Shown piece by piece: positions 10,601 through 37,744 of a stretch of 64,000 nt of DNA (its first letter is position 1; each line of letters starts with the position of its first letter). A program made the position numbers and the translations under genes. The stretch comes from Botryllus schlosseri (taxonomy: Eukaryota), in assembly GCA_051294905.1 (NCBI GenBank), contig CM119372.1:33916001-33980000 (forward strand). Direction: 5' to 3'. Below the pieces are notes generated by a model. That model did no database searches, was not told the DNA's origin, and was given only the letters and a program-made list of their open reading frames with translations.

Positions 10601-10757
10601 ATCCGTCCGTGCTCAAGACACAACACTGATATTCGCCCACAGCAAGCGCTTTCAAGTTTCGTAGGGTGGGGCTTTCTTTGGGCAGTTCCGTAGGTGACAT
10701 AATTTCTCTTCCGTTTCCGTGGAAGTATCCAATCGAATTATCGCCCCAAGCGAGCAT
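7689..10757 (-). CDS. HERC4: Small HERC-family E3 ubiquitin ligase (HERC3/HERC4-like; RCC1 repeats + HECT), single exon, 1022 aa
   Basis: Uninterrupted ORF; the first ATG (10757) gives MLAWGDNS, resembling the HERC4 N-terminus; repeated RCC1 motifs (WGxNxFGQLG, CGxxHT); HECT motifs FVGEDGQDAGGVRKEFF, FPLALYKKLL, catalytic LPVAHTCFN, C-terminal EGFFLA. Exact orthology (HERC3 vs HERC4) cannot be resolved here. Confidence 0.95.
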   Translation of the reverse strand: MLAWGDNSIGYFHGNGREIMSPTELPKESPTLRNLKALAVGEYQCCVLSTDGSVTIFGTTCNGSSSHEISTSSKITAFETLNIVDVFAGGSHMFAVTDDGRAYGWGGNNFGQLGWKDESGNSVISVPKSVRRLPSKRVVQISCGLSHTLVLLHDGSIYAMGDNSYGQLGIGTYEPTSEPTEVTSLRGLPIAQIAASGWHSFCVTVSGRVFCWGRNDFGQLGLGDRANRKSPSPLRMLRSHAVKFIAGGDYHSAVLTQDGGVFTFGSSSKGQLGHGSISESEVNPRKVFELMGSVVTQVACGKLHTIAYVPDSGNVFTCGSGERGQLGLGTKIDSLQVPTVVKGPWRQSTSPFYNISRILACGNQSFVIVGAKSVDYRDSPEHRQIWRVNSDLCERASRIGDAGQIPVNVLQQLECIMSSQSCMNASFLAQDHHTTSSKYPGVSLMTARLLFSKLMKCGNKKLIQKVESYLAWYLIPSLPPNPPDIEALRLYITLPEFKIFRNPDFHDSLLFPFVEKLLNLAENPSKILDQWYRSLDSDFFMTPVEMCKDCIVSTIKRGLPPDIVKKMITLLLNLMRKLNKVNNSGESCVVDFRKFYIPELNDLIPLESDYQQWARTANQDFSFCRYPFVFNSKAKTLLLQIDSKFQMNEAFLHARGQNVAAIFGLGMGGVGLESPVIEVEIRRERLVEDAIRGIRDNGNLKRPFIVKFVGEDGQDAGGVRKEFFMLILREILDPKYGMFRNYDDSNLLWFSDFGIETDDTYHLIGTLCGLAVYNSTIIDISFPLALYKKLLDVQPTLSDLKELDPVVGNSLQQLVDFVEDDGSTIEDIFCLNFTITRDHFGTTACKELIENGENIAVTGDNRSQYVSAYLDYVFNKSIESQFECFKKGFLRVCGGQVLNLFRPEELMEMVVGNQNYNWEELEKKTVYKGEYWRNHKVIVWFWEVFHALTVDEKKEFVRFLTGSSKIPINGLEFCIQPLPFGDDYLPVAHTCFNILDLPRYTNRDALKTKLKLAIRSEGFFLA

Positions 10758-11214
10758 TACGCCCGTTCTCGAGCGTTCGAATTGACTAGCCTTGACTGAT
10801 ATAAATTGCAACTAAATCTAGTTCATAGCGAAAAGAAGCTCGAGAGTTGATCGCGTCACATAACATCAGGGCTGGGCACAATGATGCGAGTCGAGTTAAC
10901 ATATTATTGATTCTGAGACGAGTCGTGAGAGACGATTTCGTCAAGTAGTGAAATAACATGCTCCTTGCCACTAAGACCTAATTATGCAACTTGTCACAAA
11001 ATGAAATGAAATATAGCTAGTCAAGTCAAAAAACAAATAAATTAATAATCTTTAATGTAATAGGGAGCAATAATGTAATGAGCAGGGAGCATGACATGCA
11101 GTGAGAAATTAACTATATTCAAGCATACTTTAAAAGAATGTGTAACAATAGGTTACTTTGTTCTATAGGCCCATGTCGAGAAGGGGTTGGTGACAAATAC
11201 AGATCTCAAAACTA

Positions 11215-13473: not shown

Positions 13474-14315
13474 TAGGGATGGTGTGAACTTGAGGTTCAC
13501 GCTCGCGTTCTGTGTGTGAACCTCGGGAATTTAGTGGTTCGCGTTCACAACAGAACCTTGGTAGGTTCTGCACTGTGAACCTTTTTCATATATTACAATT
13601 TTCACTTCAATATGATAATTTTGGTTCGAATTTATTGCATTTCAACTGCGGGCCACTCTATGAATGACGCTGGCAGCATAAAAAATCAACACAAAACGAG
13701 CATGCACCTTGACAATCTCAAAGATTTTACTTGCTTTGTTACAAAAGTTTGCACCAAATTTCCAGCTTCCCGTTTATGAATATTTAGTGACTCTCTGCTG
13801 TGAGCTTGACCCGCAATCACACAATACCATGAGCGACATGCAGTACCTGTAGTCAGCGAATGATGCTTATTCAACGAATCAATGAGATCGATATCGCTTT
13901 TTGATGTAATAAATCTAGCAGTCAATCTTGACTTCATATGTTTACTGTATCGTTAAAACAAAATCCGTGCGATTGAGGCGTTGGCTACAGTTGTATCACT
14001 TGTGGTGTAGCCTAATATCGGTACCAAATATGGAAACATGTTTTACGCTCGGCCCAATATCAATGTAGCAATAGTCAGCCACCGAATACATTGTCCGGTC
14101 TGGCGAAGACCGTTAAGGCGTAAGCTTATATTCACTGGCAACTCGTCGTCGAAATTGTCGGCAAAGTGACGGATGATATTGATTTTATGGGAGTATCATA
14201 TCATTTGACTGCCTCAGTTGATACATATAGCGAGGTTTCAAACGCCACTATGTATTTAGGCATTCTGTCATTGTGTGGCCCGACTCGTCGCTAGATATCG
14301 TGTACATTAATATAG
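13474..14315. mobile_element. hAT MITE (TAGGGATGGTGTGAAC family), truncated
   Basis: Same terminus and interior as 17905-18886 (inverted) and 63331-64000. Confidence 0.85.
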
Positions 14316-17904: not shown

Positions 17905-18886
17905 TAGGGATGGTGTGAACCTCTGAAAGGTTCGGGTTCGTGTGAACGCGAACCTTTTTGAAAGGTTCTGTGTGAACACGAACGTGAACCTCGTGACGTC
18001 ATATTGCTAAATCCAACCCTATCTTTCAATGAAGTGATAGCCTATATTAAAGTACACGATACCTAGCGAAGACTCGGGCCACATAATATCGCATTGCTGA
18101 AGTACAAATTGGCGTTTTAAACGTCGCTAAATGTATCAACCGCGGTTATCAAAGGATATAATAATCTCATAAAATCAATACATTCCGTCGCTTTGCCAAC
18201 AATTTCGACGAGGACTTACCAGGGGATATAAGCTTACGCCTTAATGGTCTTAGCCAGACCGGACAATGTATTCGGAGACTGAGTATTGCTACATTGATAT
18301 TGAGCAGAGTGTAAAACGGGTTTCTATACTTTCTACCGATACCATAAACAACAAGTTATATAGCAGTAGCCAGCACCTTAATCGCAGGAATTTGGTTTTA
18401 ATGATACAGTAAAGATATGAAATCGAGATTGACCCCGTACGCCCGCTCGATTTTATACATCAGTAAACGATATCAATGTCATAGATTGGTTGAATAAGCA
18501 TCATTCGCTGACTACGTATATCGCTCGTGATGTTGTGTGATTGCGGGTCAAGCTCACAGCAGAGAGTCACTAAATATTCACGAACGGAAAGCTGGATATG
18601 TGGAGAATTTTTTGGTAACAAAAAAGCAAGTAAAACTTTTAAGGTTGGCAGGGAGCATGCTCATTTGGTGTTGATTTTTTATGCTGCCAGCGCCATGCAT
18701 AGAGTGACCCGCAGTTGAAATGCAATAAATTTGAACCAAAGATCTTATAATAAAGTGCAAATTACAATTTACCAAAAAGGTTCACAGTGCAGAACCTACC
18801 AAGGTTCTGTTGTGAACGCGAACCTCTAAATTTCCGAGGTTCACACACAGAACGCGAACGTGAACCTCACGTTCACACCATCCCTA
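17905..18886. mobile_element. Complete hAT MITE (TAGGGATGGTGTGAAC family)
   Basis: TIR TAGGGATGGTGTGAAC / GTTCACACCATCCCTA; perfect 8-bp TSD CAAAATAC. Confidence 0.95.
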
Positions 18887-20469: not shown

Positions 20470-21377
20470 TTAGTGTAACGATAAGAGGTGATCAAGTAGG
20501 GCTTTTTTGAATCTATCATAAGGCAATTCACGGATATGTGGTGGTAATGCATTCCAAATGATAGGTCCCGAGTAGTCGATAGATCTCTTAGTTAGGTTGC
20601 TATTGGGTGGGGGTAAGTAGATATTTCCCTTTGACGAGGATCTCGTGTAATGGGAATGGACATGTTTAGCAGGTATGAAAAAGTCATCAAACACAGGAGG
20701 CAGACTATTGGAAAAATATTTTTGAACAACTTTTGATACTTCGAAGCGATATAGCTCATCAACTCGCAAAATTCGATGCTTACGGTAGTAAGGCGATAAA
20801 TAGGTACGTAAAGGTACAGATGAGATCAGCCGTATCGCACGGTTTTGCAGGGTTCGAATTCTGCACAGAAATGTTTTGCATGCACTTCCCCATACTACGA
20901 TTCCATATTGCAGGTGAGAGTGGAAAAGAGAAAAATATATGGTTCGTAGTATTGATCTGGAAACCAAAGATTGCAGACGGGTCATTATTCCCACACACCG
21001 AGCTAGTTTTGATATTGTGCATTCAATATGCTGCTTCCAAGACATTTTAGCATCAATAGTGACACCGAGATATTTTGCTGAGTCACATATGGAGATTTGT
21101 TTATGATTGATGTTCACAGTGAAACTATGATTGGCATTATTTAAAAGGAGCATCTCGGTCTTATCTGCATTCAAGCTTAGTTTGTTTGCTTGGAGCCATC
21201 TCGACACTTTTGGGAGTTCCCTATTCACGGATGCATGCAAATCATTGCCAGTGTTAGAGGTTATGAAGAGGTGAGTATCATCAGCAAATAGGGTTGTGCG
21301 GAATAAAGATGCATTAACAATGTCGTTAATATAAATGAGGAAAAAAGTCGGTCCAAGGACTGAGCCTTGTGGGACTC
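20470..21377 (-). pseudogene. LINE ORF2, C-terminal part (RT GVPQGS and FADD motifs to stop)
   Basis: Open frame GVPQGSVLGPTFFLIYINDIVNASLFRTTLFADDTHLF...KYLGVTID...LLSLH*. Confidence 0.95.
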
Positions 21378-21383
21378 CACAAG

Positions 21384-21700
21384 AGTAGTAGTATAGATCG
21401 GTCGCGAACTAGCGTTGTGGCTTATGGCGGGGTCGCGATTCGCCGTGAAAACCCGGGGTGGCGATTCGCCTCTTATCTCTTATGGCGGGGCCGCGATTCG
21501 CCATGTGTTCTTATGGGTGCGGTCGTGATTCGCCCTTTCGGGTATAGGCTGCGGTCGTGATTCGCCGTGAAAACTCGGGGTCGTGACTCGCCTTTTTTGC
21601 TATAGGCGGTGGCGGTGATTCGCCTGTCGTGTATTCTTACGGGTTCTGTGGTGACTCGCCATGTGTTCTTATGGGTGCGGTCGTGAATCGCCCTTTCAGG
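21384..21700. repeat. GC-rich terminal segment with ~9 copies of GGTCGTGATTCGCC-like motif (mirror 34480-34796)
   Basis: Variants such as ggtcgcgattcgcc, gccgcgattcgcc, ggtcgtgattcgcc, ggtcgtgactcgcc, ggtcgtgaatcgcc; sharp switch to AT-rich DNA at ~21720. Confidence 0.85.
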
Positions 21701-24700
21701 CATCTCTCGCACGGTGTTGAATATGTATCAAGTGAATAGTCATATGAATGAACCTTGTTAATGTGTATATCGTAAATTATTATATATGATGTAGTTTAGT
21801 CGTGACAAATGACCGATCGTGTTCTAAGTGTTTCCTCGCTATTGATCCCTACGTAGCCTGAATAGCACGCCGACTTTCAGATCGGATTATTGACACCTTC
21901 GCTGTTTCACATCTACAGAATAGTCTGCTGTTCACAAACTAACACTCCAAAAAGGTGTGAAATATTGGTAAAATCCCGCGATCGCTCACAAGATAATACC
22001 TAAGACATAACCATCGCTCGCGACTCGCTGTTACATACATGCCGATCGTTGACAATGTAATATTTTGGTAATTGGTTTGCCACAGAGCCGGCGTAGACGG
22101 TGATTCGAATATCAACAATAGCCGCGTTCACAAACCAACACTTCAAAAACGTGTGAAATAGGTTACAAATCCCACGATCACTCACAAGATAACACCAAAG
22201 ACATAGCCATTTCTCGCGTCTTGTCATTACATACATCCCAATCGCTACAGTGTAATGTGTCGATGGTTGTTACTATCAAGTAATAAGTAATGAATAACAG
22301 TACCAGCGCAGACCGTGATTCGAAAACCAACAATTTGACATTTGCCCGCGATCGCTATATGTTTCACGCCTCCCGAATAGTGGCTGACTTTAGTTGCGTG
22401 ATAAGATCCATGAAAATATTCAATCAATGTGTTAGTTTGTCAACTTGAAATGTAACTCACTACACAAATCAAGTTGAATCGTATTTGAATGTATTGACTC
22501 GACCCAACTCAAATCCTTTGACAAATTCTATTAACGCAATCTGTTGAATCGAACGTAACCTGAATATTACTGACGCCAACATTCACCCACATCGGATCAT
22601 TCACACATTCCACGCCGCTGTTTTAACAGGTATAGAATCAATACAAACTATCTCTAACCCGATAATATTCAATCATTTTGGTAATTTACCAACTTTAAAT
22701 CCATTCGCGGATGTACTAAAGGTAAATCCAGATAATCCAAAATGAAATATTTGGACTTTGACATAGTCTGAATTGAAATAGATTGACAAACATGACTAAC
22801 AACTTTCAACCCAGTCATATTTAGAGATTATACGCACATTGATTCGAAACAAGTAATGAAACATTACAACTCTATTCGCGATCCGACTTTTCAATTGTCA
22901 AAGCGACATTTTAACATCTTACCATACTCAAAAGAATTATTCACAACAAACACCAGTGTTAAAAATCTAGTTTTCACTTACTTGATTATATCAGTACAAC
23001 TAGCAAACTTGAACTAATTCATCTGGTTGTATTCATATGACCGATAATTTTTATCCAACTGTAAAGTTCGTTACTATTCTGTAAAACAAAGTATTTACTA
23101 ATCGATCCATATACGACTTGACATAAACCTATTACATTTTGAATATACGATATTTGAATGTCTGAACAATAACTGAGAAATAATTATCACAAGTGAATCC
23201 ATATACGACAGCGTAAAAGATATTGGAATGTCAGCAACTCTTTACGGTCGTAGTTACTACCACATTAACTAATTTACCCGACCAACTCGTCATGATCATT
23301 CCTGAAATCAACACAAATATGACCACTGACTTGAGTTAACCACAAAACAGCATCAAGTTTTAAATCCACTTGTAGCTTACGGATTATTTGAATGCTGGTT
23401 ATGTTTTGTTGTAATTGAGTTAACGGAAATACTATTACGTCTCGACATCTGACCATCTTACCATATTCAAAGAATCAACCACGAAAACATTGTCAAGTAA
23501 ATCCGTTAACCGACCAACTCAACAGTATCAATATGAAAAACAGCCAAACATACACGAATCCATACAAGCACTAAAACCTAAAATCCATAACAAGCCTGGT
23601 TGTATTCATATCCCTACATGTCTTTTTTATTCAACTTGAAAAGTCGTTACTATTCTGTAAGACAAAGAAATTACTATGCGGTATATTTTGTAAGATAAAA
23701 GTAATTACTTCTCGGTGCCCGCGACTTGAGATTAACATAATATGTTTGAGTATGCGAGATTTGAAAGTCTGCCCAACATGTTGAGAATTCATTTCTTACA
23801 ATCGAACGCAGGTGTTATATTGAAAATTATCATGATGTAAACATAAGGATTGACACATTGATTTGACATATGTAATAGTTGATCATGACTTGCCTATTAA
23901 ATTATTTGCGTTAATTAGACCCGGCGTTGTGGTAAAGATTATTGTGACAGCAACAAACTTTTCAGTACCATTGTTATTAACATATTGAGTTGTAAACTAT
24001 GTGTGTCTAAAATGTTCTCGATTGGAAAATTATTCAGCCTTGGTACAAGCCACGCAGAGTATTGTGGATATCGGGAAATATTTTACAAATGTCTGCATTA
24101 AACAAGACTAAAGATGAAACAACAATTTCCTTTGTTGAACAATAACCGGGGCAATACTTTATTGTCGGTGAGAATGGAAACACTTTCGCGCATTACCTGG
24201 TGTCAAGATATCACACTTGGTGAATTGACATACCACCATTTGATTAATGCTTAATCCGTTCGCATCATTTCACACTCACTTTGATCATTACAAAAGTAAA
24301 TTGGAATATGTTTGTTAGGCACCACCTATTCAACTATACTTGAGTAATACAGAAACCTCTCAGCATTAATAAAATCGAAATGTGCGCTACACTGAAATCT
24401 ACAAAAATGTGTTTGTATTGCTGTTCGTAGTAGCGATATCGATTTGAACCTCCATCATCTAACCAAACTACTGAGAGTCGTTGTCAATTTACATGACGTT
24501 CACTGATTACATACTAGAACTATTTGTGCAGCACACACGATCAGAGAAATTGGAAATTTTCCCATTGCCATTTGTCAAAGTAAATGTCGTCACAATACTC
24601 AGTCACTAAAAGACCATATACTTGTATGTGATTGAATCACCAACAATTAACTCGCTAAATCAAATCGTAAGGCAATTTCACGCACTCAGCGGATATTACA

Positions 24701-26446
24701 CAACGTCGCTTTATCGGTGTGGGTCGTTTTTTCTAAATACAAATCATATCTGTCCAGTAGAAAACAATTTTCACGCACTTGGGTAATGAAACCAGTGTGC
24801 AATATCAATACAAGATATTTTCGTGACACAAAAAATAATCAACTTACTCGATATTCTCGTAAAACGAAACTGTACACAGGTTTCATGTTTTTTGTATGAC
24901 ACGGAATTAATACCGATCGAAGTAACTGTGTTGGAAATGACTTTCATACAAATACACTCTATGTGGTTAACATTCTCATCGATTCTACTGTGATCAATGT
25001 ATACTATATGTATTCTGGATTCATTTCGATATGGCTAAACATACAACCTCGACAGATACGAATTGTCACACACTCAAGTAATATCATACCAAATAGTTAT
25101 TTACAAGACGCAGAAAATTTGTTTTGGCCGTTTCGATTTTATTACTGGAGGTACTCATCACTTCGCTTAATACAATCTAGATTTAAACCCCATCGAACCT
25201 TTGGTGTCTATCGTTTTGCTGGATACGAATTATGTTAGTCTAACAGTAAACAATTTTCACAATCTTGGGTTATGAATTCAATGTGTTGGCGGTCATTCAT
25301 TATTTTGTTTGTATCAACTAGTTACTTTGTAGGGTATGAATGAGCACCCTCCCACAACTCTTACAAAAGTACGAAGGATATTTACATCACACAAAGTAGT
25401 CGACTTTACTTCATATCCTCACACTACGAAACCAAATGGTTGTTTAGACTCTACAAACTTTTTTACACGAATGGTCACACATCTAAATATTCAAATAATC
25501 CAACACATAACTATAGTACTTACAGAAATATCATAGTTCTTGTAACAAAGGTGTTTATCGTAAGTCCTACACAGTCATGATAGCCGTCCGAGTTTGACTT
25601 TTAGAAAATATTATATCGATACATCTTTCAAAAACAAAACCATGGTCACTGCTTGAGAGACCTGTCAATGATATCACAATAATACAGTTACTTCCACAAA
25701 AAAAAATATGTATTCGACTTACTTTCCACAAATCTAACACACAAAACAATTTACTTTGCTAACGAAAAGTGCTGAGTCATCATATGATTGTCCTCACAAC
25801 AATACAACTAAAACATACTATCATACAAAATGGTCGTTATAGTTTGCACCCCAACGGTACATCGTAAAAGTAACAAGTTTCAAGAATCGAGTTATTGAAA
25901 AACGTGAAAGTGTTTCTCCTGTGTCAAGTCGTTATGTTGATGAAAGTGTATATTGCAATATCATGATCAATTTGCATTCCTTGGTCACAAACTGTCACTA
26001 TACTCTAAATAATTATTTTTCACTCAAACACAAAAGCATACTAGTCACCATTCGTTTTCATCAAGTACGAGTTCAAGAAACTTACTTACTACGACATGAA
26101 TTGTTATTTTTATGTTGTGTAAATAGGTAATCGTTATTTTTAGTAACACTTTATCAATGTCATCGAGTTGTGCGAAAAGATTTTCATGTGGTCTTGCGGT
26201 TTTAATCGAAGCACACATCATGATCTAATGTAGAGTCGTCTCTATTGTACAACAACTCGGTAATCGAAATGCATGCATTAACATTTGATCAACGATCTTG
26301 TTTCGTCGCACCAAAAATATGTTCACTGTCACAATACTCTGCACAAGACGTGCAAATCCTTTTCACCCTCGTAATAGTATACCAACGACCACCGACGACA
26401 ACGTTTAACAATACCAACGACACTGGAAACACTGAACCCACGACAC

Positions 26447-26982
26447 TTATCCGAGTAAAAATACATTTTCCTTTGGCTACATGACGCTTACCAGAGTAAA
26501 AAATATCATTATCACCTGGAGATCCACCGTTACCCGAACAACAAAACCATTTTCCTTTGGAGATCTATCGTTTACCCAGTGTAACAATACATTTTCACAT
26601 GGCGATCCATCGTTTACCCTGAGCAACAAACCTTTTTCACTTGGAAATATATTTTTTCCCTGGGTAACAAACCTTTTTCACTTGGAAATATATTTTATCC
26701 CTGGGTAACAAACCTTTTCCACTTGGAAATATATTTTTTCCCTGAGTTACAAACCGTTTCCACTTGGAAATATATTTTTTCCCTGAGCAACAACCCATTT
26801 TCACTTGGATGTATATTTTTTCCCTGAGCAACAAACCATTTTCACTTGACGGTCCGTCGTTTACCTGAGTAAAAATATCATTTACCTTTGGATATCTGGC
26901 GTTTACCCAGTGTAACAATACATTCTCACTTGACCATCTAACTTTTCCTAGAGTATCAATACCGTTTTCACTTGGAAATCTG
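26447..26982. repeat. 41-42-bp tandem repeat, ~13 copies (mirror 29198-29733)
   Basis: Unit ~TTTTCACTTGGAAATATATTTTTTCCCTGGGTAACAAACCT; CACTTG cores at 26638, 26679, 26720, 26761, 26802, 26843, 26927, 26969, with degenerate outer copies. Confidence 0.95.
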
Positions 26983-28072
26983 ACAACCACACCCGGCAAT
27001 TTGGTGTTTGTTGTATTGACGACAGTTGGAAATTGATGACAACGAACAGTGACGAAAATATACACGAACAACCGGTTTCAGAGTATACCCGCGTCGGTCG
27101 TATCACATCAATATCATCGGTTAGCCACATGAAATACCAATATGCTCTTATACATCGAAATGTATGTTTTGGAAATTGGACTATAGGTTTCGATATGTCT
27201 GTGATGTCCAGGTTCGTACTTTGGATTTTCCAGAGTCAAAGTGTCTGAATAAAACACCGCCTCGACTTCGGTAAATGTTTGGCACGCAGATAACGCTGGT
27301 CGGAAATCGTGGAATTTATGTTTCCATCGGGCTAACAACTCCAGGTTACTTGTGATTTTTCTCACACGTGTTTACTATGTTGTGTCGCTCTTTATTGATC
27401 AATACATAACACGCCATTAAGTTTGAAATCGGAAACCTCGAGAAAGTGTTAACCGGATCCGGATATCAACTCTGAATCGATAAACCATATTCAAGTAAAC
27501 ATACCACAACCCGGGTTTCCATGAAAATAACAAGACATCGCACAAATCAAGCATACTTCGCGATTATTTGCCCACACAAGAATCCCATAAGCGAGGTGTA
27601 TGACATTACATACATCATGGATAACATCGTGTCTAGCATTACAAACATCATGGGTGACAAATTCGTCTTCTCAAGTCTCGTCATGCACCGACTCTGTACA
27701 TTCAATGTGGGGTAGACGACTTGGAGACAGACAAACAGACATATTTGACCGTAACATGGCCTTAGCATGAGAATTCGTTACACGGGTACAACGTCGCAGT
27801 CAGACGTCTTTAACAGTGATTCCGCGTATGGAAATCTTAATTCGATTGTGGTTTTGTAATGTAATCCGGGTTACTGTGTTTCTGCGGTGTGAAGACTAAA
27901 TTCGTGTTGATCCCCCTGCAAGAGCGTGATGTCTATTTCACACCTAGAGCAATTATAAAACACATCTTCGAAACTTTTGGTCTAGTTCATCCGCTTGCAT
28001 TTTGAAACGGACCATCACCGCAAGACAATTGAAAAAACTTTGTCGTTACCTGATCAATATACACGAGTAAGG

Positions 28073-28348
28073 ATGAGACTACGCGTAACTGTCCATAGAT
28101 TCCTCTGGCCCCACACCGTGGTTTTACGACACAGACAAGATGCAGCAGTGGAAATATTGAAAATGAAAAACGATACCTTGGTTACATTTGATTTGGATTT
28201 TACACCTGATGAACCATACACTCGATTGATACATTGGGATGACAACTCTATCGTCGAGGTTGAGGGAAAAGAAATGTACAGATTTGTTGGTGTCGTGGAT
28301 ATTCAACGAAAATCGGGGTACATGATAGTACATGGTTCGCATATATGA
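28073..28348 (+). CDS. Hypothetical 91-aa protein in the unique spacer of the palindrome
   Basis: ATG at 28073 within a 117-codon open frame; TATAAAA at 27954-27960; globular-looking composition; no homology recognised. Confidence 0.4.
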   Translation: MRLRVTVHRFLWPHTVVLRHRQDAAVEILKMKNDTLVTFDLDFTPDEPYTRLIHWDDNSIVEVEGKEMYRFVGVVDIQRKSGYMIVHGSHI

Positions 28349-28419
28349 CTATGAATGTATCGGTATGCATAATGCTCTGTTCACTGTATCGATATCATCA
28401 ATGGTATTTGAACGCATAA

Positions 28420-31400
28420 CCATGTTACGGTCAAATATGTCTGTTTGTCTGTCTCCAAGTCGTCTACCCCACATTGAATGTACAGAGTCGGTGCATGACG
28501 AGACTTGAGAAGACGAATTTGTCACCCATGATGTTTGGAATGCTAGACACGATGTTATCCATGATGTATGTAATGTCATACACCTCGCTTATGGGATTCT
28601 TGTGTGGGCAAATAATCGCGAAGTATACTTGATTTGTGCGATGTCTTGTTATTTTCATGGAAACCCGGGTTGTGGTATGTTTACTTGAATATGGTTTATC
28701 GATTCAGAGTTGATATCCGGATCCGGTTAACACTTTCTCGAGGTTTCCCGATTTCAAACTTAATGGCGTGTTATGTATTGATCAATAAAGAGCGACACAA
28801 CATAGTAAACACGTGTGAGAAAAATCACAAGTAACCTGGAGTTGTTAGCCCGATGGAAACATAAATTCCACGATTTCCGACCAGCGTTATCTGCGTGCCA
28901 AACATTTACCGAAGTCGAGGCGGTGTTTTATTCAGACACTTTGACTCTGGAAAATCCAAAGTACGAACCTGGACATCACAGACATATCGAAACCTATTGT
29001 CCAATTTCCAAAACATACATTTCGATGTATAAGAGCATATTGGTATTTCATGTGGCTAACCGATGATATTGATGTGATACGACCGACGCGGGTATACTCT
29101 GAAACCGGTTGTTCGTGTATATTTTCGTCACTGTTCGTTGTCATCAATTTCCAACTGTCGTCAATACAACAAACACCAAATTGCCGGGTGTGGTTGTCAG
29201 ATTTCCAAGTGAAAACGGTATTGATACTCTAGGAAAAGTTAGATGGTCAAGTGAGAATGTATTGTTACACTGGGTAAACGCCAGATATCCAAAGGTAAAT
29301 GATATTTTTACTCAGGTAAACGACGGACCGTCAAGTGAAAATGGTTTGTTGCTCAGGGAAAAAATATACATCCAAGTGAAAATGGGTTGTTGCTCAGGGA
29401 AAAAATATATTTCCAAGTGGAAACGGTTTGTAACTCAGGGAAAAAATATATTTCCAAGTGGAAAAGGTTTGTTACCCAGGGATAAAATATATTTCCAAGT
29501 GAAAAAGGTTTGTTACCCAGGGAAAAAATATATTTCCAAGTGAAAAAGGTTTGTTGCTCAGGGTAAACGATGGATCGCCATGTGAAAATGTATTGTTACA
29601 CTGGGTAAACGATAGATCTCCAAAGGAAAATGGTTTTGTTGTTCGGGTAACGGTGGATCTCCAGGTGATAATGATATTTTTTACTCTGGTAAGCGTCATG
29701 TAGCCAAAGGAAAATGTATTTTTACTCGGATAAGTGTCGTGGGTTCAGTGTTTCCATTGTCGTTGGTATTGTTAAACGTTGTCGTCGGTGGTCGTTGGTA
29801 TACTATTACGAGGGTGAAAAGGATTTGCACGTCTTGTGCAGAGTATTGTGACAGTGAACATATTTTTGGTGCGACGAAACAAGATCGTTGTTCAAATGTT
29901 AATGCATGCATTTCGATTACCGAGTTGTTGTACAATAGAGACGACTCTACATTAGATCATGATGTGTGCTTCGATTAAAACCGCAAGACCACATGAAAAT
30001 CTTTTCGCACAACTCGATGACATTGATAAAGTGTTACTAAAAATAACGATTACCTATTTACACAACATAAAAATAACAATTCATGTCGTAGTAAGTAAGT
30101 TTCTTGAACTCGTACTTGATGAAAACGAATGGTGACTAGTATGCTTTTGTGTTTGAGTGAAAAATAATTATTTAGAGTATAGTGACAGTTTGTGACCAAG
30201 GAATGCAAATTGATCATGATATTGCAATATACACTTTCATCAACATAACGACTTGACACAGGAGAAACACTTTCACGTTTTTCAATAACTCGATTCTTGA
30301 AACTTGTTACTTTTACGATGTACCGTTGGGGTGCAAACTATAACGACCATTTTGTATGATAGTATGTTTTAGTTGTATTGTTGTGAGGACAATCATATGA
30401 TGACTCAACACTTTTCGTTAGCAAAGTAAATTGTTTTGTGTGTTAGATTTGTGGAAAGTAAGTCGAATACATATTTTTTTTTGTGGAAGTAACTGTATTA
30501 TTGTGATATCATTGACAGGTCTCTCAAGCAGTGACCATGGTTTTGTTTTTGAAAGATGTATCGATATAATATTTTCTAAAAGTCAAACTCGGACGGCTAT
30601 CATGACTGTGTAGGACTTACGATAAACACCTTTGTTACAAGAACTATGATATTTCTGTAAGTACTATAGTTATGTGTTGGATTATTTGAATATTTAGATG
30701 TGTGACCATTCGTGTAAAAAAGTTTGTAGAGTCTAAACAACCATTTGGTTTCGTAGTGTGAGGATATGAAGTAAAGTCGACTACTTTGTGTGATGTAAAT
30801 ATCCTTCGTACTTTTGTAAGAGTTGTGGGAGGGTGCTCATTCATACCCTACAAAGTAACTAGTTGATACAAACAAAATAATGAATGACCGCCAACACATT
30901 GAATTCATAACCCAAGATTGTGAAAATTGTTTACTGTTAGACTAACATAATTCGTATCCAGCAAAACGATAGACACCAAAGGTTCGATGGGGTTTAAATC
31001 TAGATTGTATTAAGCGAAGTGATGAGTACCTCCAGTAATAAAATCGAAACGGCCAAAACAAATTTTCTGCGTCTTGTAAATAACTATTTGGTATGATATT
31101 ACTTGAGTGTGTGACAATTCGTATCTGTCGAGGTTGTATGTTTAGCCATATCGAAATGAATCCAGAATACATATAGTATACATTGATCACAGTAGAATCG
31201 ATGAGAATGTTAACCACATAGAGTGTATTTGTATGAAAGTCATTTCCAACACAGTTACTTCGATCGGTATTAATTCCGTGTCATACAAAAAACATGAAAC
31301 CTGTGTACAGTTTCGTTTTACGAGAATATCGAGTAAGTTGATTATTTTTTGTGTCACGAAAATATCTTGTATTGATATTGCACACTGGTTTCATTACCCA

Positions 31401-34400
31401 AGTGCGTGAAAATTGTTTTCTACTGGACAGATATGATTTGTATTTAGAAAAAACGACCCACACCGATAAAGCGACGTTGTGTAATATCCGCTGAGTGCGT
31501 GAAATTGCCTTACGATTTGATTTAGCGAGTTAATTGTTGGTGATTCAATCACATACAAGTATATGGTCTTTTAGTGACTGAGTATTGTGACGACATTTAC
31601 TGTGACAAATGGCAATGGGAAAATTTCCAATTTCTCTGATCGTGTGTGCTGCACAAATAGTTCTAGTATGTAATCAGTGAACGTCATGTAAATTGACAAC
31701 GACTCTCAGTAGTTTGGTTAGATGATGGAGGTTCAAATCGATATCGCTACTACGAACAGCAATACAAACACATTTTTGTAGATTTCAGTGTAGCGCACAT
31801 TTCGATTTTATTAATGCTGAGAGGTTTCTGTATTACTCAAGTATAGTTGAATAGGTGGTGCCTAACAAACATATTCCAATTTACTTTTGTAATGATCAAA
31901 GTGAGTGTGAAATGATGCGAACGGATTAAGCATTAATCAAATGGTGGTATGTCAATTCACCAAGTGTGATATCTTGACACCAGGTAATGCGCGAAAGTGT
32001 TTCCATTCTCACCGACAATAAAGTATTGCCCCGGTTATTGTTCAACAAAGGAAATTGTTGTTTCATCTTTAGTCTTGTTTAATGCAGACATTTGTAAAAT
32101 ATTTCCCGATATCCACAATACTCTGCGTGGCTTGTACCAAGGCTGAATAATTTTCCAATCGAGAACATTTTAGACACACATAGTTTACAACTCAATATGT
32201 TAATAACAATGGTACTGAAAAGTTTGTTGCTGTCACAATAATCTTTACCACAACGCCGGGTCTAATTAACGCAAATAATTTAATAGGCAAGTCATGATCA
32301 ACTATTACATATGTCAAATCAATGTGTCAATCCTTATGTTTACATCATGATAATTTTCAATATAACACCTGCGTTCGATTGTAAGAAATGAATTCTCAAC
32401 ATGTTGGGCAGACTTTCAAATCTCGCATACTCAAACATATTATGTTAATCTCAAGTCGCGGGCACCGAGAAGTAATTACTTTTATCTTACAAAATATACC
32501 GCATAGTAATTTCTTTGTCTTACAGAATAGTAACGACTTTTCAAGTTGAATAAAAAAGACATGTAGGGATATGAATACAACCAGGCTTGTTATGGATTTT
32601 AGGTTTTAGTGCTTGTATGGATTCGTGTATGTTTGGCTGTTTTTCATATTGATACTGTTGAGTTGGTCGGTTAACGGATTTACTTGACAATGTTTTCGTG
32701 GTTGATTCTTTGAATATGGTAAGATGGTCAGATGTCGAGACGTAATAGTATTTCCGTTAACTCAATTACAACAAAACATAACCAGCATTCAAATAATCCG
32801 TAAGCTACAAGTGGATTTAAAACTTGATGCTGTTTTGTGGTTAACTCAAGTCAGTGGTCATATTTGTGTTGATTTCAGGAATGATCATGACGAGTTGGTC
32901 GGGTAAATTAGTTAATGTGGTAGTAACTACGACCGTAAAGAGTTGCTGACATTCCAATATCTTTTACGCTGTCGTATATGGATTCACTTGTGATAATTAT
33001 TTCTCAGTTATTGTTCAGACATTCAAATATCGTATATTCAAAATGTAATAGGTTTATGTCAAGTCGTATATGGATCGATTAGTAAATACTTTGTTTTACA
33101 GAATAGTAACGAACTTTACAGTTGGATAAAAATTATCGGTCATATGAATACAACCAGATGAATTAGTTCAAGTTTGCTAGTTGTACTGATATAATCAAGT
33201 AAGTGAAAACTAGATTTTTAACACTGGTGTTTGTTGTGAATAATTCTTTTGAGTATGGTAAGATGTTAAAATGTCGCTTTGACAATTGAAAAGTCGGATC
33301 GCGAATAGAGTTGTAATGTTTCATTACTTGTTTCGAATCAATGTGCGTATAATCTCTAAATATGACTGGGTTGAAAGTTGTTAGTCATGTTTGTCAATCT
33401 ATTTCAATTCAGACTATGTCAAAGTCCAAATATTTCATTTTGGATTATCTGGATTTACCTTTAGTACATCCGCGAATGGATTTAAAGTTGGTAAATTACC
33501 AAAATGATTGAATATTATCGGGTTAGAGATAGTTTGTATTGATTCTATACCTGTTAAAACAGCGGCGTGGAATGTGTGAATGATCCGATGTGGGTGAATG
33601 TTGGCGTCAGTAATATTCAGGTTACGTTCGATTCAACAGATTGCGTTAATAGAATTTGTCAAAGGATTTGAGTTGGGTCGAGTCAATACATTCAAATACG
33701 ATTCAACTTGATTTGTGTAGTGAGTTACATTTCAAGTTGACAAACTAACACATTGATTGAATATTTTCATGGATCTTATCACGCAACTAAAGTCAGCCAC
33801 TATTCGGGAGGCGTGAAACATATAGCGATCGCGGGCAAATGTCAAATTGTTGGTTTTCGAATCACGGTCTGCGCTGGTACTGTTATTCATTACTTATTAC
33901 TTGATAGTAACAACCATCGACACATTACACTGTAGCGATTGGGATGTATGTAATGACAAGACGCGAGAAATGGCTATGTCTTTGGTGTTATCTTGTGAGT
34001 GATCGTGGGATTTGTAACCTATTTCACACGTTTTTGAAGTGTTGGTTTGTGAACGCGGCTATTGTTGATATTCGAATCACCGTCTACGCCGGCTCTGTGG
34101 CAAACCAATTACCAAAATATTACATTGTCAACGATCGGCATGTATGTAACAGCGAGTCGCGAGCGATGGTTATGTCTTAGGTATTATCTTGTGAGCGATC
34201 GCGGGATTTTACCAATATTTCACACCTTTTTGGAGTGTTAGTTTGTGAACAGCAGACTATTCTGTAGATGTGAAACAGCGAAGGTGTCAATAATCCGATC
34301 TGAAAGTCGGCGTGCTATTCAGGCTACGTAGGGATCAATAGCGAGGAAACACTTAGAACACGATCGGTCATTTGTCACGACTAAACTACATCATATATAA

Positions 34401-34796
34401 TAATTTACGATATACACATTAACAAGGTTCATTCATATGACTATTCACTTGATACATATTCAACACCGTGCGAGAGATGCCTGAAAGGGCGATTCACGAC
34501 CGCACCCATAAGAACACATGGCGAGTCACCACAGAACCCGTAAGAATACACGACAGGCGAATCACCGCCACCGCCTATAGCAAAAAAGGCGAGTCACGAC
34601 CCCGAGTTTTCACGGCGAATCACGACCGCAGCCTATACCCGAAAGGGCGAATCACGACCGCACCCATAAGAACACATGGCGAATCGCGGCCCCGCCATAA
34701 GAGATAAGAGGCGAATCGCCACCCCGGGTTTTCACGGCGAATCGCGACCCCGCCATAAGCCACAACGCTAGTTCGCGACCGATCTATACTACTACT
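28420..34796. repeat. Right arm of giant inverted repeat (6,377 bp)
   Basis: Begins CCATGTTACGGTCAAATATGTC, the reverse complement of the left-arm end at 27759. Confidence 0.98.
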
Positions 34797-36813
34797 CACA
34801 AGTTATATCTCTGGTAGTCGATCTTAATGTCCCCAGTTTAACAAATTGTTTGCGATTTGCCAGGTAGCTTTCAAGTAGAGTTGCTGCAATACCCCTGATT
34901 CCATAGTGTTCTAGCTTGTATCTTAAGATTCTGTGGTTAACTGTGTCGAAAGCTTTACGGAGGTCGATAAAAATGCTGCAGCCACTTTTTTTTTGCTTTA
35001 TGGTTTTGTAATAGTCCGTTACAATTGATAGTATTGCATGGTTGGTGTTGTGGTTTGATCTGAATCCATGCTGGGTCGGAGACAGTACTGCATTCAATTC
35101 AAAAAAAATTTTGAGTCGGCAGTCAATCAGTTTTTCAAAAACCGTGGCAAGATTTGGCAGAACAGATATTGGTCGGTAGTTAGAAATTAGCTTTTTACAG
35201 CCTTTCTTAAACACTGGCATTACTCTGGCAGTTTTCAGTGCATCTGGGAAAATGCCCAGACGTATCGACTCATTAAAGAAAATGCATATAACATCACCAA
35301 TAATATTAAAGACTAGCTTCAGAAAGTGCGTTGGGATGAGATCGGGTCCTACTGCTTTGCTACTTTTCATTTCAGATAGTATGATGGCAACTTCTCCTTC
35401 ACTTGTCGGCTCAAGAAAAATGGATTTCTTGGGGCCAGGACTTAAGTACGAGAGAAAGTCATCGGAGGAGTTCGGTATTGAAGCTGCAAGATCCGGACCA
35501 ATGTTGCAAAAATACTGATTGAACTTTTCTGCTACTGCAAGCTGGTCTTTGATCATGCTGCCATTCTCGAGTAGCTCGATGTCAGCAGCACTGTTGGGAG
35601 CATTACCTTTAGTTAGGTTGATAATTTCTCCAATGGTTTTCCATGTGTTCTTGGGATCCTTGGAGCACTCTTCGAATCTTTTTTGGAAGTATGCCTTTTT
35701 GGCATTTTCTTTCATATGCGTCACTTGGTTTGCATATTTTTTGTACACTTTTTTGCCTTCGCTTGTGCCTTGCAGATAGTAGTGCTTATGCATCCAATCC
35801 CTTGTTTTGATCGCAACTAGTATGTCATGACCAATCCAGGGTTTCGATTTCAAGCGCCTTGCATTGCGGTTGACTTTCCTAATTGGGAAAGATGTGTCGA
35901 GGGCTGCCCGCAGTTCCTCAATAAATTTTTCAAAGTGGCGATTGTAGTTGTCAATTGTGAGTGGAGGAGTTTTGTAGTTGTTGAAGGTATTGCTGACAAT
36001 TTCAATATACTCCTCAATACCGCGTGGGTTCAGGGGCGTTCGAGATTCAAATTCTTTAGCACATTGTGGCAGGACCAATTTCATGTGGCAGATGATGGGA
36101 TAGTGATCAGTCATACTGTGTTGGAGCACAAAAGGGGACAGGTGATATTGATGAGTGTTGCAGTAGAAGTGATCTAGTAGAGTTTTGGATTGGTCAGCTA
36201 TTCTTGTGGGTTCAGTAATTATCTGAGCTATTCCATAAGAATCAAGCATTTCACGGTACCTTGTGTTGAAGTTGGTGGTCTTCAGCAAATCAATATTTAT
36301 GTCTCCCATAATAAATATTTGTTCGTTAGCTGCCGTTAACGTTTCCAGTATATTTGAGAATTCGTCAAGAAAAGTCTCTTGCTTTGTTCCTGGGTGTTTG
36401 TAGATGACTGCCACTGTGAGAGCTTTTTGTACATGCACTCTGACAAATATATATTCTACGCCTTCGGTTTCAAATTTTACGTCGGGCATCATGTCATATC
36501 TCACACCTTCGTTGATGTATAGTCCAACACCTCCAGCGTTCGTTTTGGATGGCGAGTGTAAAAAGTTGAAACCTGTCAGGTTAACATTAGTTGTTGGTTG
36601 TTCTTTCAACTTGGTCTCAGAGATTCCGATGATGATTGGTGAGCAATTAAACATCTCAAACAGGGGGGGAATTTCATCTAGATGAGCTTGGAGGGATCTT
36701 GTGTTTAAGTGTGCAAGTAAAATTCCTTGAGATGATGGGATGTCACTACTATTCGTTGAATTGATGGATCTGCAGTTGCTCATGTTGAAAAAGGTTAGCT
36801 TGTTTAATAACAT
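34797..36813 (-). pseudogene. LINE ORF2, N-terminal part (APE endonuclease + RT N-half)
   Basis: HLNTRSL, IIGISETKL, GGVGLYI, MGDINIDL, TLLDHFY, TDHYPI (APE); NYRPISVLP, QHGFR, IDLRKAFDTVNH (RT); frame open up to the insertion site (..RDITC). Confidence 0.95.
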
Positions 36814-37744
36814 TGACGCAACAAGAGTGTCTGGCAAAACGAGACTATGCAGCTCAGAAATAGCTAGACAGTTTGTTGCGTCACAATGTTCAACTCGATC
36901 ACAATGCAAAATTCGTGGTTGATTTTGGGGGTTCCAGTTCCATGAGAATAGTTTATATTTTAATAATCAGTACTGCGGCAGCTTCTCATTGATACCCGTT
37001 TTATCAAATTTAGCGCTCGACAAGCCGGTCAAAAATGGTCGTAAAATTGCCTTTGGACAAATGGAAAATATGACGTAAACCAAATGCAGTCAGCCGTTCA
37101 ATCTCGCTGTGCCCACACCGTTTAGGACACCATGCTTTCACCCCTAATGGGTGAGCTGGACCCAGATTAAGAAACGTGCCTTTCACAAACGCTCTTCTCG
37201 CTTGTAACGCGGTCCTGTTAACACAACACCATGAACGAAATACACTATTTGGCAGGCCGTGTTATTTTTGGCATATGCCAAAAATTGCTTATTTTGGGCA
37301 TTTTCAAATTTTTATTTTTGGCAGTTTTGGCATTTGGCTCCTGAAATGCCAAAAATAACACGGCCTGCTCATAGGCTACTTCGAAAATTCAATTTGACTT
37401 GAATTGTGACTTGACTCGACTTGACGCGATGAGTCACCTCCAAAATCGAGTGACTTTACTTGAATCGAGTCATCTTCGAAAATCGATTGACTGGACTTGA
37501 CTTGAGTCAAAATCTGCAATGACTCGTGACTCGAAGGCAGTGACTTGATCCCAACACTGATGCATACTAGGGTTGTTCAGAAATAACTTTTTTCCCGGAC
37601 TCTGGGATTCACATGATTACATTGGTTGGTAGCTATAACGCAAGACGAATATTTTGATGATATTACACTCGCGTAATATGAATCCAGAAGGCTACTTATA
37701 GGATTCGCTGCGTGTATCTTCCCTTTTAACGGACCAGCGTATGT

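What the first reader, a model, noticed from the sequence alone, without database searches (positions are those of the whole stretch)
21384..34796. 13.4-kb self-palindromic element with Polinton ends but no Polinton genes: a candidate copy-back (defective/satellite) Polinton
Seen: 95% of the element is one inverted repeat (6,376 + 6,377 bp around 660 bp), with ends AGTAGTAGT...ACTACTACT, an exact 6-bp TSD CACAAG, and no ORF over 144 aa. Known: Polintons/Mavericks have AG...CT ends with short terminal tandem repeats used in protein-primed slide-back initiation, 6-bp TSDs from a retroviral-like integrase, and TIRs usually of hundreds of bp to about 1 kb. Inference: one ~7-kb end of a parent element was duplicated by template switching during strand-displacement replication, as in copy-back defective viral genomes. 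This would give a molecule with two origins and near-normal length but no enzymes, replicated, possibly packaged, and integrated by a helper. Arms that are near-identical yet non-coding, inside an intact young LINE, suggest a recently mobile parasite of Polintons.
Basis: partly seen in the sequence, partly recalled or inferred. Interest (0 to 1): 0.93.

Follow-up and report, generated by a model that had tools for sequence, protein, structure and literature searches.

The report
Palindromic one-gene satellite of Polintons
This 13.4-kb mirror-image element is one of several hundred dependants of a virus-like Polinton transposon in this genome; it has kept the virus's ends and one small unknown gene at its centre, and its two halves are kept identical.

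Summary
Arms 21384-27759 and 28420-34796 differ by 7 substitutions and 1 indel around a 660-bp spacer. The ends read AGTAGTAGT...ACTACTACT, the flanking duplication is CACAAG, and the insertion splits a LINE reverse-transcriptase domain cleanly.

It is one member of a large family. The terminus motif occurs 2,496 times in this 495-Mb genome (control 24). All 10 elements whose ends I read have their own 6-bp duplication, and 9 of 11 palindrome loci fetched are complete palindromes.

A coding Polinton in the same genome shares the terminal ~550 bp (about 92% identity) and the 6-bp duplication. It carries a protein-primed polymerase, rve integrase, ATPase and double-jelly-roll capsid protein.

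- The arms share nothing with the Polinton beyond that repeat, so this copy is not a fresh copy-back of a coding parent.
- The element is not gene-free. The spacer holds a conserved 91-codon orphan ORF (28073-28348) with dN/dS 0.11-0.34 between lineages. Its motif occurs 789 times, against 93 for the helper integrase motif.

Differences between copies are mirrored in both arms (153 against 12), so the arms are homogenised. The most likely route is hairpin or panhandle replication intermediates, which is inferred. I rate it a new variant of a known kind, interest 0.78.

The parts
21378..21383 (.). left copy of the 6-bp target-site duplication CACAAG
   Evidence: 10 of 10 elements whose ends were read have their own perfect 6-bp duplication
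21384..27759 (.). left arm of the palindrome (6,376 bp), no conserved coding signal
   Evidence: 0 of 86 ORFs of 40 aa or more in arm plus spacer hit Pfam; most arm ORFs carry stops in other copies
21384..21392 (+). terminal AGT x3 repeat; other copies have x2, and the two ends of copy C8 differ by one unit
   Evidence: a role in slide-back initiation is inferred from protein-primed replicons (recalled)
21387..21936 (.). terminal repeat shared with the coding Polinton (92.7% and 90.9% over 561 alignment columns to its two ends)
   Evidence: the helper's own two ends are 97.8% alike over 557 nt
21432..21692 (+). array of GYCGYGAHTCGCC-like subterminal motifs; six strict copies start at 21432, 21490, 21522, 21554, 21580 and 21680, at the same offsets as in the helper
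   Evidence: protein-binding or packaging role inferred
26491..26980 (.). about 12 copies of a 41-bp tandem repeat (mirror copy about 29200-29689)
   Evidence: homologous arrays in all other copies
27760..28419 (+). unique central spacer (loop), homologous between copies
27954..27959 (+). TATAAA 119 nt upstream of the ORF's ATG, inside a block ATAAAAC invariant in the 6 aligned spacers
   Evidence: promoter role inferred
28073..28348 (+). conserved 91-codon orphan ORF (MRLRVTVHRF...HGSHI, stop included)
   Evidence: open in 10 of 11 places found in the fetched loci; dN/dS 0.11-0.34 between lineages, codon-position differences 26/15/39; 148 of 150 scored genomic hits without stops; four outside relatives of 90-91 aa
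28420..34796 (.). right arm (6,377 bp), reverse complement of the left arm
34797..34802 (.). right copy of the target-site duplication CACAAG
20470..21383 (-). host LINE, C-terminal part of the RT domain (RVT_1 profile 113-205)
34797..36966 (-). host LINE, endonuclease and N-terminal part of the RT domain (RVT_1 profile 5-112)

Best explanation
The element is a non-autonomous, fully palindromic derivative of a Polinton/Maverick: in effect a Polinton whose terminal inverted repeat has grown to 95% of its length. It keeps the helper's ~550-bp ends, with the AGT terminal repeats and subterminal motif array. It adds ~5.8 kb of non-coding arm on each side and one small conserved gene in the central loop. 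It encodes no polymerase, integrase, ATPase or capsid protein, so it must be copied and integrated in trans by the Polintons of the same genome that share its ends (inferred). Integration by the rve integrase would explain the 6-bp duplications (inferred). Between copies, nearly all differences are mirrored in both arms. The two arms are therefore repeatedly made identical along each lineage. The most likely route (inferred) is that a strand displaced during protein-primed replication snaps back into a 6.4-kb hairpin, the extreme form of the panhandle proposed for adenovirus and PRD1. In that hairpin, mismatches and end differences would be repaired from the partner arm. Total length stays near 13-15 kb despite fast sequence turnover. 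That hints at a length constraint, possibly packaging in the helper's capsid (speculative). The function of the 91-aa protein is unknown. My guess is that it helps the satellite use or interfere with the helper.
For: Shown:
- Family. The terminus motif occurs 2,496 times against 24 for the control, and the spacer-ORF motif 789 times against 0. On contig C1 up to 19 Mb, 23 of 33 ORF-motif hits lie inside a listed +/- terminus pair, mostly near its midpoint (my cross-tabulation).
- Palindromy. 9 of 11 palindrome loci fetched, the window included, are complete palindromes with arm-to-arm identity of 99.67-100%. The same copies are only 66-96% identical to the window copy over the arm interiors.
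- Integration. 10 of 10 elements whose ends were read have distinct perfect 6-bp TSDs.
- Partner. The 14.9-kb element C4:12062501-12077432 has TSD TATGCC and the same ends (92.7% over 561 columns). It carries rve (Pfam 1.6e-16), an A32-like ATPase (weak Pfam hits), a polymerase whose homologues carry PF03175 (E about 1e-138) and a double-jelly-roll capsid protein (model pLDDT 86; Foldseek E 1e-16 to 1e-12 to iridovirus, PBCV-1, Sputnik and mavirus capsid proteins). The integrase motif of this lineage occurs 93 times. Many polymerase frames are open for 1,217-1,300 aa.
- Symmetry. Window copy against C15 copy: 153 substitutions are mirrored and 7+5 are arm-specific. The terminal ~600 bp is replaced by another end variant on both arms at once.
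- Gene. See parts.
- The panhandle and 'homology-restoring' model for protein-primed replicons is in print (passages of PMC11886824).
Against: No direct evidence of mobilisation by the helper, of extrachromosomal or hairpin forms, or of packaging. In-situ gene conversion between the arms could also produce mirrored differences and is not excluded. Every copy examined has very similar arms (0-0.33% divergence), so no old copy was available to separate the two. The paper cited for the panhandle says direct evidence for such structures is still lacking. RNA support for the small ORF is negligible: 14 and 39 reads were laid, most only partly. The protein has no recognisable fold or family. The one helper copy read in full has its polymerase split over two frames. 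Other helper copies were seen only as search hits. Only 3 coding elements were tied to these termini, two of them by coordinates alone. Repbase could not be consulted.
Confidence: 0.78

Rival explanations
1. One reading: this copy is a recent copy-back defective genome, made when one ~7-kb end of a coding Polinton was duplicated by template switching.
For: Ends, TSD and near-helper length fit. A 22.9-kb variant (C14a) with a second symmetry centre and its own TSD shows that rearrangements between arms occur before integration. As the remote origin of the whole family it cannot be excluded. The small ORF lies at the element's centre, as the ATPase gene lies near the centre of the helper, and a pairwise BLASTP links the two weakly (E 2e-4).
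Against: Only positions 4-553 match the coding element. No polymerase or capsid remnant was found in the arms of 9 copies, with positive controls at 1e-162 and 1e-166. The same arm and spacer architecture is shared by hundreds of copies that differ by up to about 30%. The profile-to-profile comparison of the ORF with the ATPase gives probability 2.9%. The profile search of 1.84 billion proteins returned no ATPase.
Confidence: 0.05
2. Same family and same dependence on the helper, but the arms are kept identical by gene conversion between the arms of integrated copies, as in sex-chromosome palindromes, and not during replication.
For: Mirrored differences are equally expected. Copies that have since taken up 2.2-9.9-kb insertions in one arm still have 99.7-100% identical arms.
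Against: The terminal ~600 bp was exchanged for another end variant on both arms. That needs exchange with another element first, which is simpler among co-replicating molecules. The arm-to-arm differences seen (0-17 substitutions in about 6.4 kb) are no more than young insertions would accumulate without any conversion. This is indirect.
Confidence: 0.17
3. An unrelated foldback-type DNA transposon (FB, Galileo/P or similar) moved by its own enzyme, which only resembles Polinton ends.
For: Long inverted repeats with internal tandem repeats recall foldback elements (recalled).
Against: About 550 bp of terminal sequence, with the same motif offsets, is shared with an element encoding pPolB, rve, ATPase and capsid protein. 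TSDs are 6 bp in 10 of 10, whereas FB makes 9 bp and Galileo 7 bp (recalled). No transposase-like ORF was found.
Confidence: 0.02
4. Assembly artefact: a chimeric foldback read turned a one-armed insertion into a palindrome.
For: Perfect palindromes are a known artefact of long-read libraries (recalled). I laid no reads across both junctions.
Against: Both junctions continue one LINE ORF with a TSD. Nine separate complete palindromes carry their own sequence variants, and 10 elements their own TSDs. The ORF motif lies between terminus pairs across the genome.
Confidence: 0.01

Closest known systems
Autonomous Polintons/Mavericks (polintoviruses)
   Same: 5'-AG...CT-3' ends with short terminal repeats, 6-bp TSD, ~550 bp of terminal sequence shared with a co-resident coding element, and total length about 90% of that element.
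   Different: No pPolB, integrase, ATPase, protease or capsid gene. The inverted repeat covers 95% of the element instead of a few hundred bp. It carries one orphan gene that was not found in the helper.
Butterfly Polintons with ~2-kb gene-bearing TIRs, and polB-less Polinton-related insertions (preprint 10.1101/2025.02.07.637071; passages read)
   Same: They show that Polinton TIRs can expand and that derivatives without polB can still insert.
   Different: Those TIRs hold hexon and adenain genes and cover a minor part of the element. The derivatives carry LINE cargo. None is described as a full palindrome.
Capsid-only mini-Mavericks noted earlier in this scan (e1-7499109, e1-7499069; AI notes, not checked here)
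   Same: Dependent, stripped-down Polinton derivatives with long inverted ends.
   Different: About 6 kb, with capsid-module genes retained. Here no helper gene is retained and the element keeps near-full length.
Defective adenovirus genomes with long inverted terminal duplications, and panhandle repair of inverted terminal repeats (recalled; panhandle model cited from passages of PMC11886824)
   Same: Protein-primed linear replicons in which intrastrand pairing of inverted ends is proposed to restore end identity. Defective genomes can duplicate one end.
   Different: Those arise anew in infections and are colinear with the parent genome. This is an old, diversified, integrated lineage with its own gene and non-parental arms.
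Foldback elements (Drosophila FB, Galileo) (recalled)
   Same: Very long inverted repeats containing tandem repeats, mostly non-coding.
   Different: TSD length (9 or 7 bp against 6 bp here), unrelated ends, cut-and-paste transposases.

Membership tests
Polinton/Maverick (autonomous) | [quoted passage not shown] | tested here: not met
   None in the element. Present in the partner element.
Polinton/Maverick (autonomous) | retroviral-like rve integrase gene | tested here: not met
   None in the element. The partner has rve at E 1.6e-16.
Polinton/Maverick (autonomous) | capsid module (double-jelly-roll capsid protein, packaging ATPase, protease) | tested here: not met
   None in the element. The partner has a DJR capsid protein and an ATPase (weak). 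Its protease-like ORF was not confirmed.
Polinton/Maverick (autonomous) | terminal inverted repeats beginning AG and ending CT, with 6-bp target-site duplication | tested here: met
Non-autonomous derivative of a Polinton | shares termini and TSD length with a coding element of the same genome | tested here: met
   92.7% over 561 columns and identical motif offsets. Some palindromes have the same terminal 20-mer as the helper.
Non-autonomous derivative of a Polinton | many copies at different sites, each with its own TSD | tested here: met
Non-autonomous derivative of a Polinton | mobilised in trans by the coding element | not testable with these tools
   Inferred only.
Copy-back defective genome of a coding parent | arms colinear with one end of the parent genome | tested here: not met
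   Only the terminal ~550 bp match. No gene remnants found.
Foldback (FB/Galileo-type) transposons | 9-bp or 7-bp TSD and family-specific ends (recalled) | tested here: not met
   6-bp TSD in 10 of 10.
Packaging ATPase (A32/FtsK-HerA) fragment, as the origin of the small ORF | significant profile similarity to the helper ATPase; Walker motifs | tested here: not met
   BLASTP E 2e-4 over 69 aa, but hhalign probability 2.9%. No ATPase in the profile search. No Walker A.

The most novel reading that the evidence does not exclude
These palindromes are true satellite viruses of a Polinton. On this reading they are replicated by the helper's protein-primed polymerase through a full-length hairpin intermediate that makes the arms identical in every cycle. 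The non-coding arms act as stuffer that brings the genome to packageable length. The 91-aa orphan protein diverts or interferes with the helper's machinery. They would then be a natural read-out of the long-postulated panhandle intermediate in eukaryotic protein-primed replication, and a parasite that outnumbers its virus-like host about 8 to 1 in the genome.
Probability: 0.3. Interest if true: 0.9.

Novelty: new variant of a known kind. Interest (0 to 1): 0.78.

Why it matters
How Polintons leave the chromosome, replicate and keep their ends identical is still not known. This family offers several hundred natural replicates in which 95% of the element is inverted repeat. Mirrored against arm-specific differences then directly report how, and how often, the two ends are copied from each other.

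The family also shows that a virus-like transposon can carry a large parasite population. By motif counts that is about 789 palindromes against 93 helper integrases; at about 13.5 kb each this would be roughly 2% of the genome (my arithmetic). Those parasites share one conserved orphan gene, which is a candidate factor for helper exploitation or interference.

For genome annotation, such elements will be missed or misfiled as foldback repeats or assembly artefacts.

Tried and rejected
- Arms as decayed Polinton genes: blastn (word size 7) and tblastn of all helper ORFs against arm plus spacer found nothing in the arm interior beyond the terminal repeat and short matches to the DNA flanking the helper; the only ORF hit beyond the repeat was the spacer-ATPase one. 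HMMs of the polymerase (40 homologues) and capsid protein (24 sequences) were run against six-frame translations of 9 copies. The best hit was E 0.008, in one copy, and inconsistent between copies. Pfam on 86 ORFs gave 0 hits.
- Small ORF as an ATPase fragment: tblastn E 0.007 and BLASTP E 2e-4, but hhalign probability 2.9% and no ATPase in the 1.84-billion-protein profile search. I rejected it as unsupported.
- That profile search's only distant hit is a bacterial WD40-repeat protein scored over 5 repeats. I treat it as chance.
- ESM Atlas: recognition value below the stated level, only unrelated small phage or bacterial clusters. Not used.
- AlphaFold of the small ORF: pLDDT 42.7. No fold search was attempted.
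- Pfam on the small ORF and other element ORFs: 0 families. Rfam at E up to 0.1 on 21300-28500: 0 matches.
- PDB sequence search for the capsid and protease-like ORFs: nothing useful. The protease-like ORF stays unconfirmed; the His and Cys motifs were seen by eye only.
- Expression: no RNA holder was listed for the spacer. Two raw RNA runs gave 14 and 39 laid reads, mostly only partly on the stretch, so this is inconclusive. Higher contig depth over the ORF appears in a probable DNA run too, so it reflects copy conservation, not expression.
- Other arm ORFs under selection: apart from four short frames (41-50 codons) inside the DNA-conserved ends and elsewhere in the arm, each open in 5-7 of 7 copies, only a 44-codon frame (27184-27315, minus strand) stays open, in 6 of 7 copies. 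All are too short to judge.
- Literature: four searches found no description of palindromic non-autonomous Polintons. The 2006 PNAS paper that defined Polintons was not held. Repbase is not searchable here.
- Earlier notes of this scan: none for this genome or this ORF.
Full report
**1.
The inverted repeat is as described. Arms 21384-27759 and 28420-34796 lie around a 660-bp spacer. A base-by-base count finds 7 substitutions and one single-base indel between the arms, all at or inside position 24578. The ends read AGTAGTAGTATAGATCGG...CCGATCTATACTACTACT and are flanked on both sides by CACAAG.

The element sits in a LINE. A 724-aa minus-strand ORF with endonuclease and RVT_1 profile positions 5-112 runs up to the right junction. 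A 312-aa ORF with RVT_1 positions 113-205 leaves the left junction. One RT domain is therefore split at one point, which makes both junctions real. The longest internal stop-to-stop ORF is 146 aa, inside a 41-bp tandem array.

**2. It is one member of a very large family.**
The window is C2:33916001-33980000 of a 495-Mb assembly. The terminal 327 bp recur as +/- pairs 13-24 kb apart. A terminus pattern matches 1327+1169 times against 6+18 for the reversed control. About 7 in 100 of the listed matches are double counts of AGTAGTAGT ends, so there are roughly 1,100-1,200 elements.

I fetched 11 palindrome loci, counting the window.
- Nine are complete palindromes: window, C5a, C14a, C9a, C8, C11, C2b, C16 and C15. 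Their arm-to-arm identity is 99.67-100%.
- Three of them carry a 2.2-9.9-kb insertion in one arm. One (C14a, 22.9 kb) has two spacers and an extra symmetry centre.
- The other two loci (C7, C4b) were only partly covered or are rearranged.
- The arm interiors of the other copies are only 66-96% identical to the window copy, in patches. The terminal ~340 bp stay at 91-97%.

All 10 elements whose ends I read have different perfect 6-bp duplications: CACAAG, AAGGCG, CACGGG, CACGTC, AACGTG, TACGGC, TACAAC, CGCGTA, TACGGT and, for the coding element, TATGCC. Elements also insert into one another.

**3. The partner is a bona fide Polinton.**
One terminus pair on contig C4 (12062501-12077432, 14.9 kb) shares only its ~550-bp ends with the palindromes: 92.7% and 90.9% over 561 columns, with the six subterminal motifs at identical offsets. 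Between those ends lies a one-strand gene array.
- An rve integrase (Pfam E 1.6e-16) and an ATPase with weak AAA, RNA_helicase and Pox_A32 matches.
- A large ORF whose 120 listed homologues (E about 1e-138, 95% coverage) mostly carry PF03175. In this copy it is split over two frames.
- A 432-aa protein whose model (pLDDT 86) matches double-jelly-roll major capsid proteins of an iridovirus, PBCV-1, Sputnik and mavirus at E 1e-16 to 1e-12 (similar in BFVD).
- A protease-like ORF that could not be confirmed.

The integrase of this lineage has at least 90 hits at 90% amino-acid identity or more, mostly open. Its DNA motif occurs 93 times against 0 for the control. Polymerase frames open for 1,217-1,300 aa are common. 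Other Polinton lineages also live here, with integrases at 65% and 51% identity and ATPases at 66-69% and 47-49%. By coordinates, two further terminus-bearing loci on C1 enclose integrase and ATPase hits.

**4.
Beyond positions 4-553, the arms share nothing with the coding element by sensitive blastn or tblastn. Profile HMMs of the polymerase and capsid protein find no remnant in six-frame translations of nine copies, while the controls on the helper score 1e-162 and 1e-166. None of 86 ORFs hits Pfam.

The palindromic architecture, with a homologous spacer whose borders agree to within about 60 nt, is common to lineages that differ by about 25%. This copy is therefore not a fresh copy-back of a coding parent. 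The palindrome is an old, inherited property of the family.

**5. The spacer is a gene.**
A block of about 275 nt in the spacer aligns across lineages in which the rest of the spacer hardly aligns. It has a conserved ATG and a single shared frame. The ORF (window 28073-28348, 91 codons) was found in 11 places in the fetched loci and is open in 10. C8 has lost the ATG, and C16, which has a 332-bp spacer, lacks the ORF altogether.

Between lineages dN/dS is 0.21-0.25 at dS of about 1.05, and 0.11-0.13 for nearer lineages. Differences fall 26/15/39 by codon position. Between close copies dN/dS is 1.37, as expected for decay after insertion.

In the genome, 148 of 150 scored hits (of 1,206 candidates) have no stop and are at least 91% identical. 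A 22-nt motif of the ORF occurs 427+362 times against 0 for the control. On C1, 23 of 33 motif hits lie inside a listed terminus pair, mostly near the midpoint. Four outside relatives exist in public assemblies, at 69-93% identity and all 90-91 aa long.

The protein has no family, no usable fold model and no credible distant relative. A weak likeness to the Walker-B region of the helper ATPase did not survive a profile-to-profile test (probability 2.9%). A TATAAA lies 119 nt upstream of the ATG, in an invariant block. RNA evidence is inconclusive.

**6. The arms are kept identical.**
The window copy and its close relative on C15 differ at 153 substituted positions where both arms of each copy agree. 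Only 7 and 5 positions differ between the arms of one copy. Of the mirrored columns (153 substitutions plus 39 gap columns), 147 lie in the first 1,000 columns. There the C15 copy carries another end variant on both arms.

Mutations and exchanged ends are therefore copied from arm to arm along lineages. Two routes fit: repair within a snapped-back single strand during protein-primed replication, or conversion between the arms of integrated copies. I favour the first. It is the same process proposed to keep inverted terminal repeats identical in adenovirus and PRD1 (passages of PMC11886824, which also states that direct evidence is lacking). It also explains the two-sided end swap simply. The helper's own 557-nt ends are 97.8% alike. 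The data here cannot decide, because no old copy with diverged arms was seen.

**7. Length.**
Terminus pairs on C1 that enclose the ORF are mostly 12.9-15.5 kb apart; three longer ones (17.6-28.7 kb) carry insertions or nested elements (my reading). The helper is 14.9 kb. Arm sequence turns over quickly while length is kept. That suggests a length constraint such as packaging, but this is an inference only.

**8. Comparison and novelty.**
The element fails the defining gene content of a Polinton. It meets the end and TSD criteria, and the criteria for a non-autonomous derivative. It is not a foldback-family element (TSD length, ends) and not a colinear defective genome.

Expanded gene-bearing TIRs of about 2 kb and polB-less derivatives have been reported in butterflies (passages of preprint 10.1101/2025.02.07.637071). 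Earlier notes of this scan describe capsid-only mini-Mavericks (not checked).

I found no description of fully palindromic, near-full-length, one-gene Polinton dependants in four literature searches. Repbase and the founding 2006 paper could not be consulted. I therefore rate it a new variant of a known kind.

**9. Verdict.**
- Observation confirmed.
- Interpretation partly supported: dependence on a Polinton, yes; a fresh copy-back of a coding parent and 'no genes', no.
- Confidence in the family-level explanation 0.78. Within that, I give the replication-cycle route of arm homogenisation about even odds.

Noticed in passing
G000:C4:12062501-12089594 (L045-L047): The coding Polinton read here sits inside the right arm of a palindromic element; its flanks match arm positions about 560-812. 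The unit of Polinton plus arm remnant is repeated in tandem with a period of 21,327 bp, and the second polymerase copy is 100% identical.
   Followed up: partly
G000:C1:16768420-16810257: Three elements with these termini are nested in one another, with pairs at 16774511-16789166, 16772825-16801530 and 16768420-16810257. The two outer ones hold the small-ORF motif and the innermost does not.
   Followed up: no
L034-L036 (G000:C14:15384932-15407857): A 22.9-kb variant with its own TSD (CACGGG), two spacers that both carry the small ORF in the same orientation, and a third symmetry centre about 400 nt wide between two truncated arms. This rearrangement probably arose before integration. One search lists other close pairs of the ORF, for example C13:4150498/4158032 and C11:18267059/18273032.
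   Followed up: partly
window 27730-28440, run X2: Contigs from a run labelled as a second organism match the spacer with no differences over 228, 134 and 144 nt. The same subfamily therefore occurs under another species label. This could be a close relative, a labelling issue or a recent transfer.
   Followed up: no
window 27184-27315 (-), mirror about 28865-28996 (+): A 44-codon frame near the inner end of the arm stays open in 6 of 7 diverged copies at 46-95% identity. It is too short to judge. The stretch 27191-27250 also has very high contig depth and loose ends in several runs, so it may occur in other repeats.
   Followed up: no
TSDs of 10 elements (window, L031-L051): Seven of 10 target-site duplications have AC at positions 2-3 (CACAAG, CACGGG, CACGTC, AACGTG, TACGGC, TACAAC, TACGGT). 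This may be a weak target preference.
   Followed up: no
G000:C1:12460616-12461327: Two small-ORF motifs lie 690 bp apart on opposite strands, with no listed terminus nearby. This is an unusual arrangement of the spacer gene.
   Followed up: no
window 7689-10811 (-): An uninterrupted 1,040-aa ORF with an RCC1-like domain and a HECT ubiquitin-ligase domain (HERC-like), apparently without introns.
   Followed up: no
window 14016-14315 and 18042-18341: A 300-nt inverted repeat (83%) spaced 3.7 kb apart, with only a 109-aa ORF between. It may be another non-autonomous DNA transposon.
   Followed up: no
G000, genome-wide: Besides the helper lineage there are at least two more Polinton lineages (integrase at 65% and 51% identity; ATPase at 66-69% and 47-49%), many with open frames. 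I did not examine whether they have palindromic dependants of their own.
   Followed up: no
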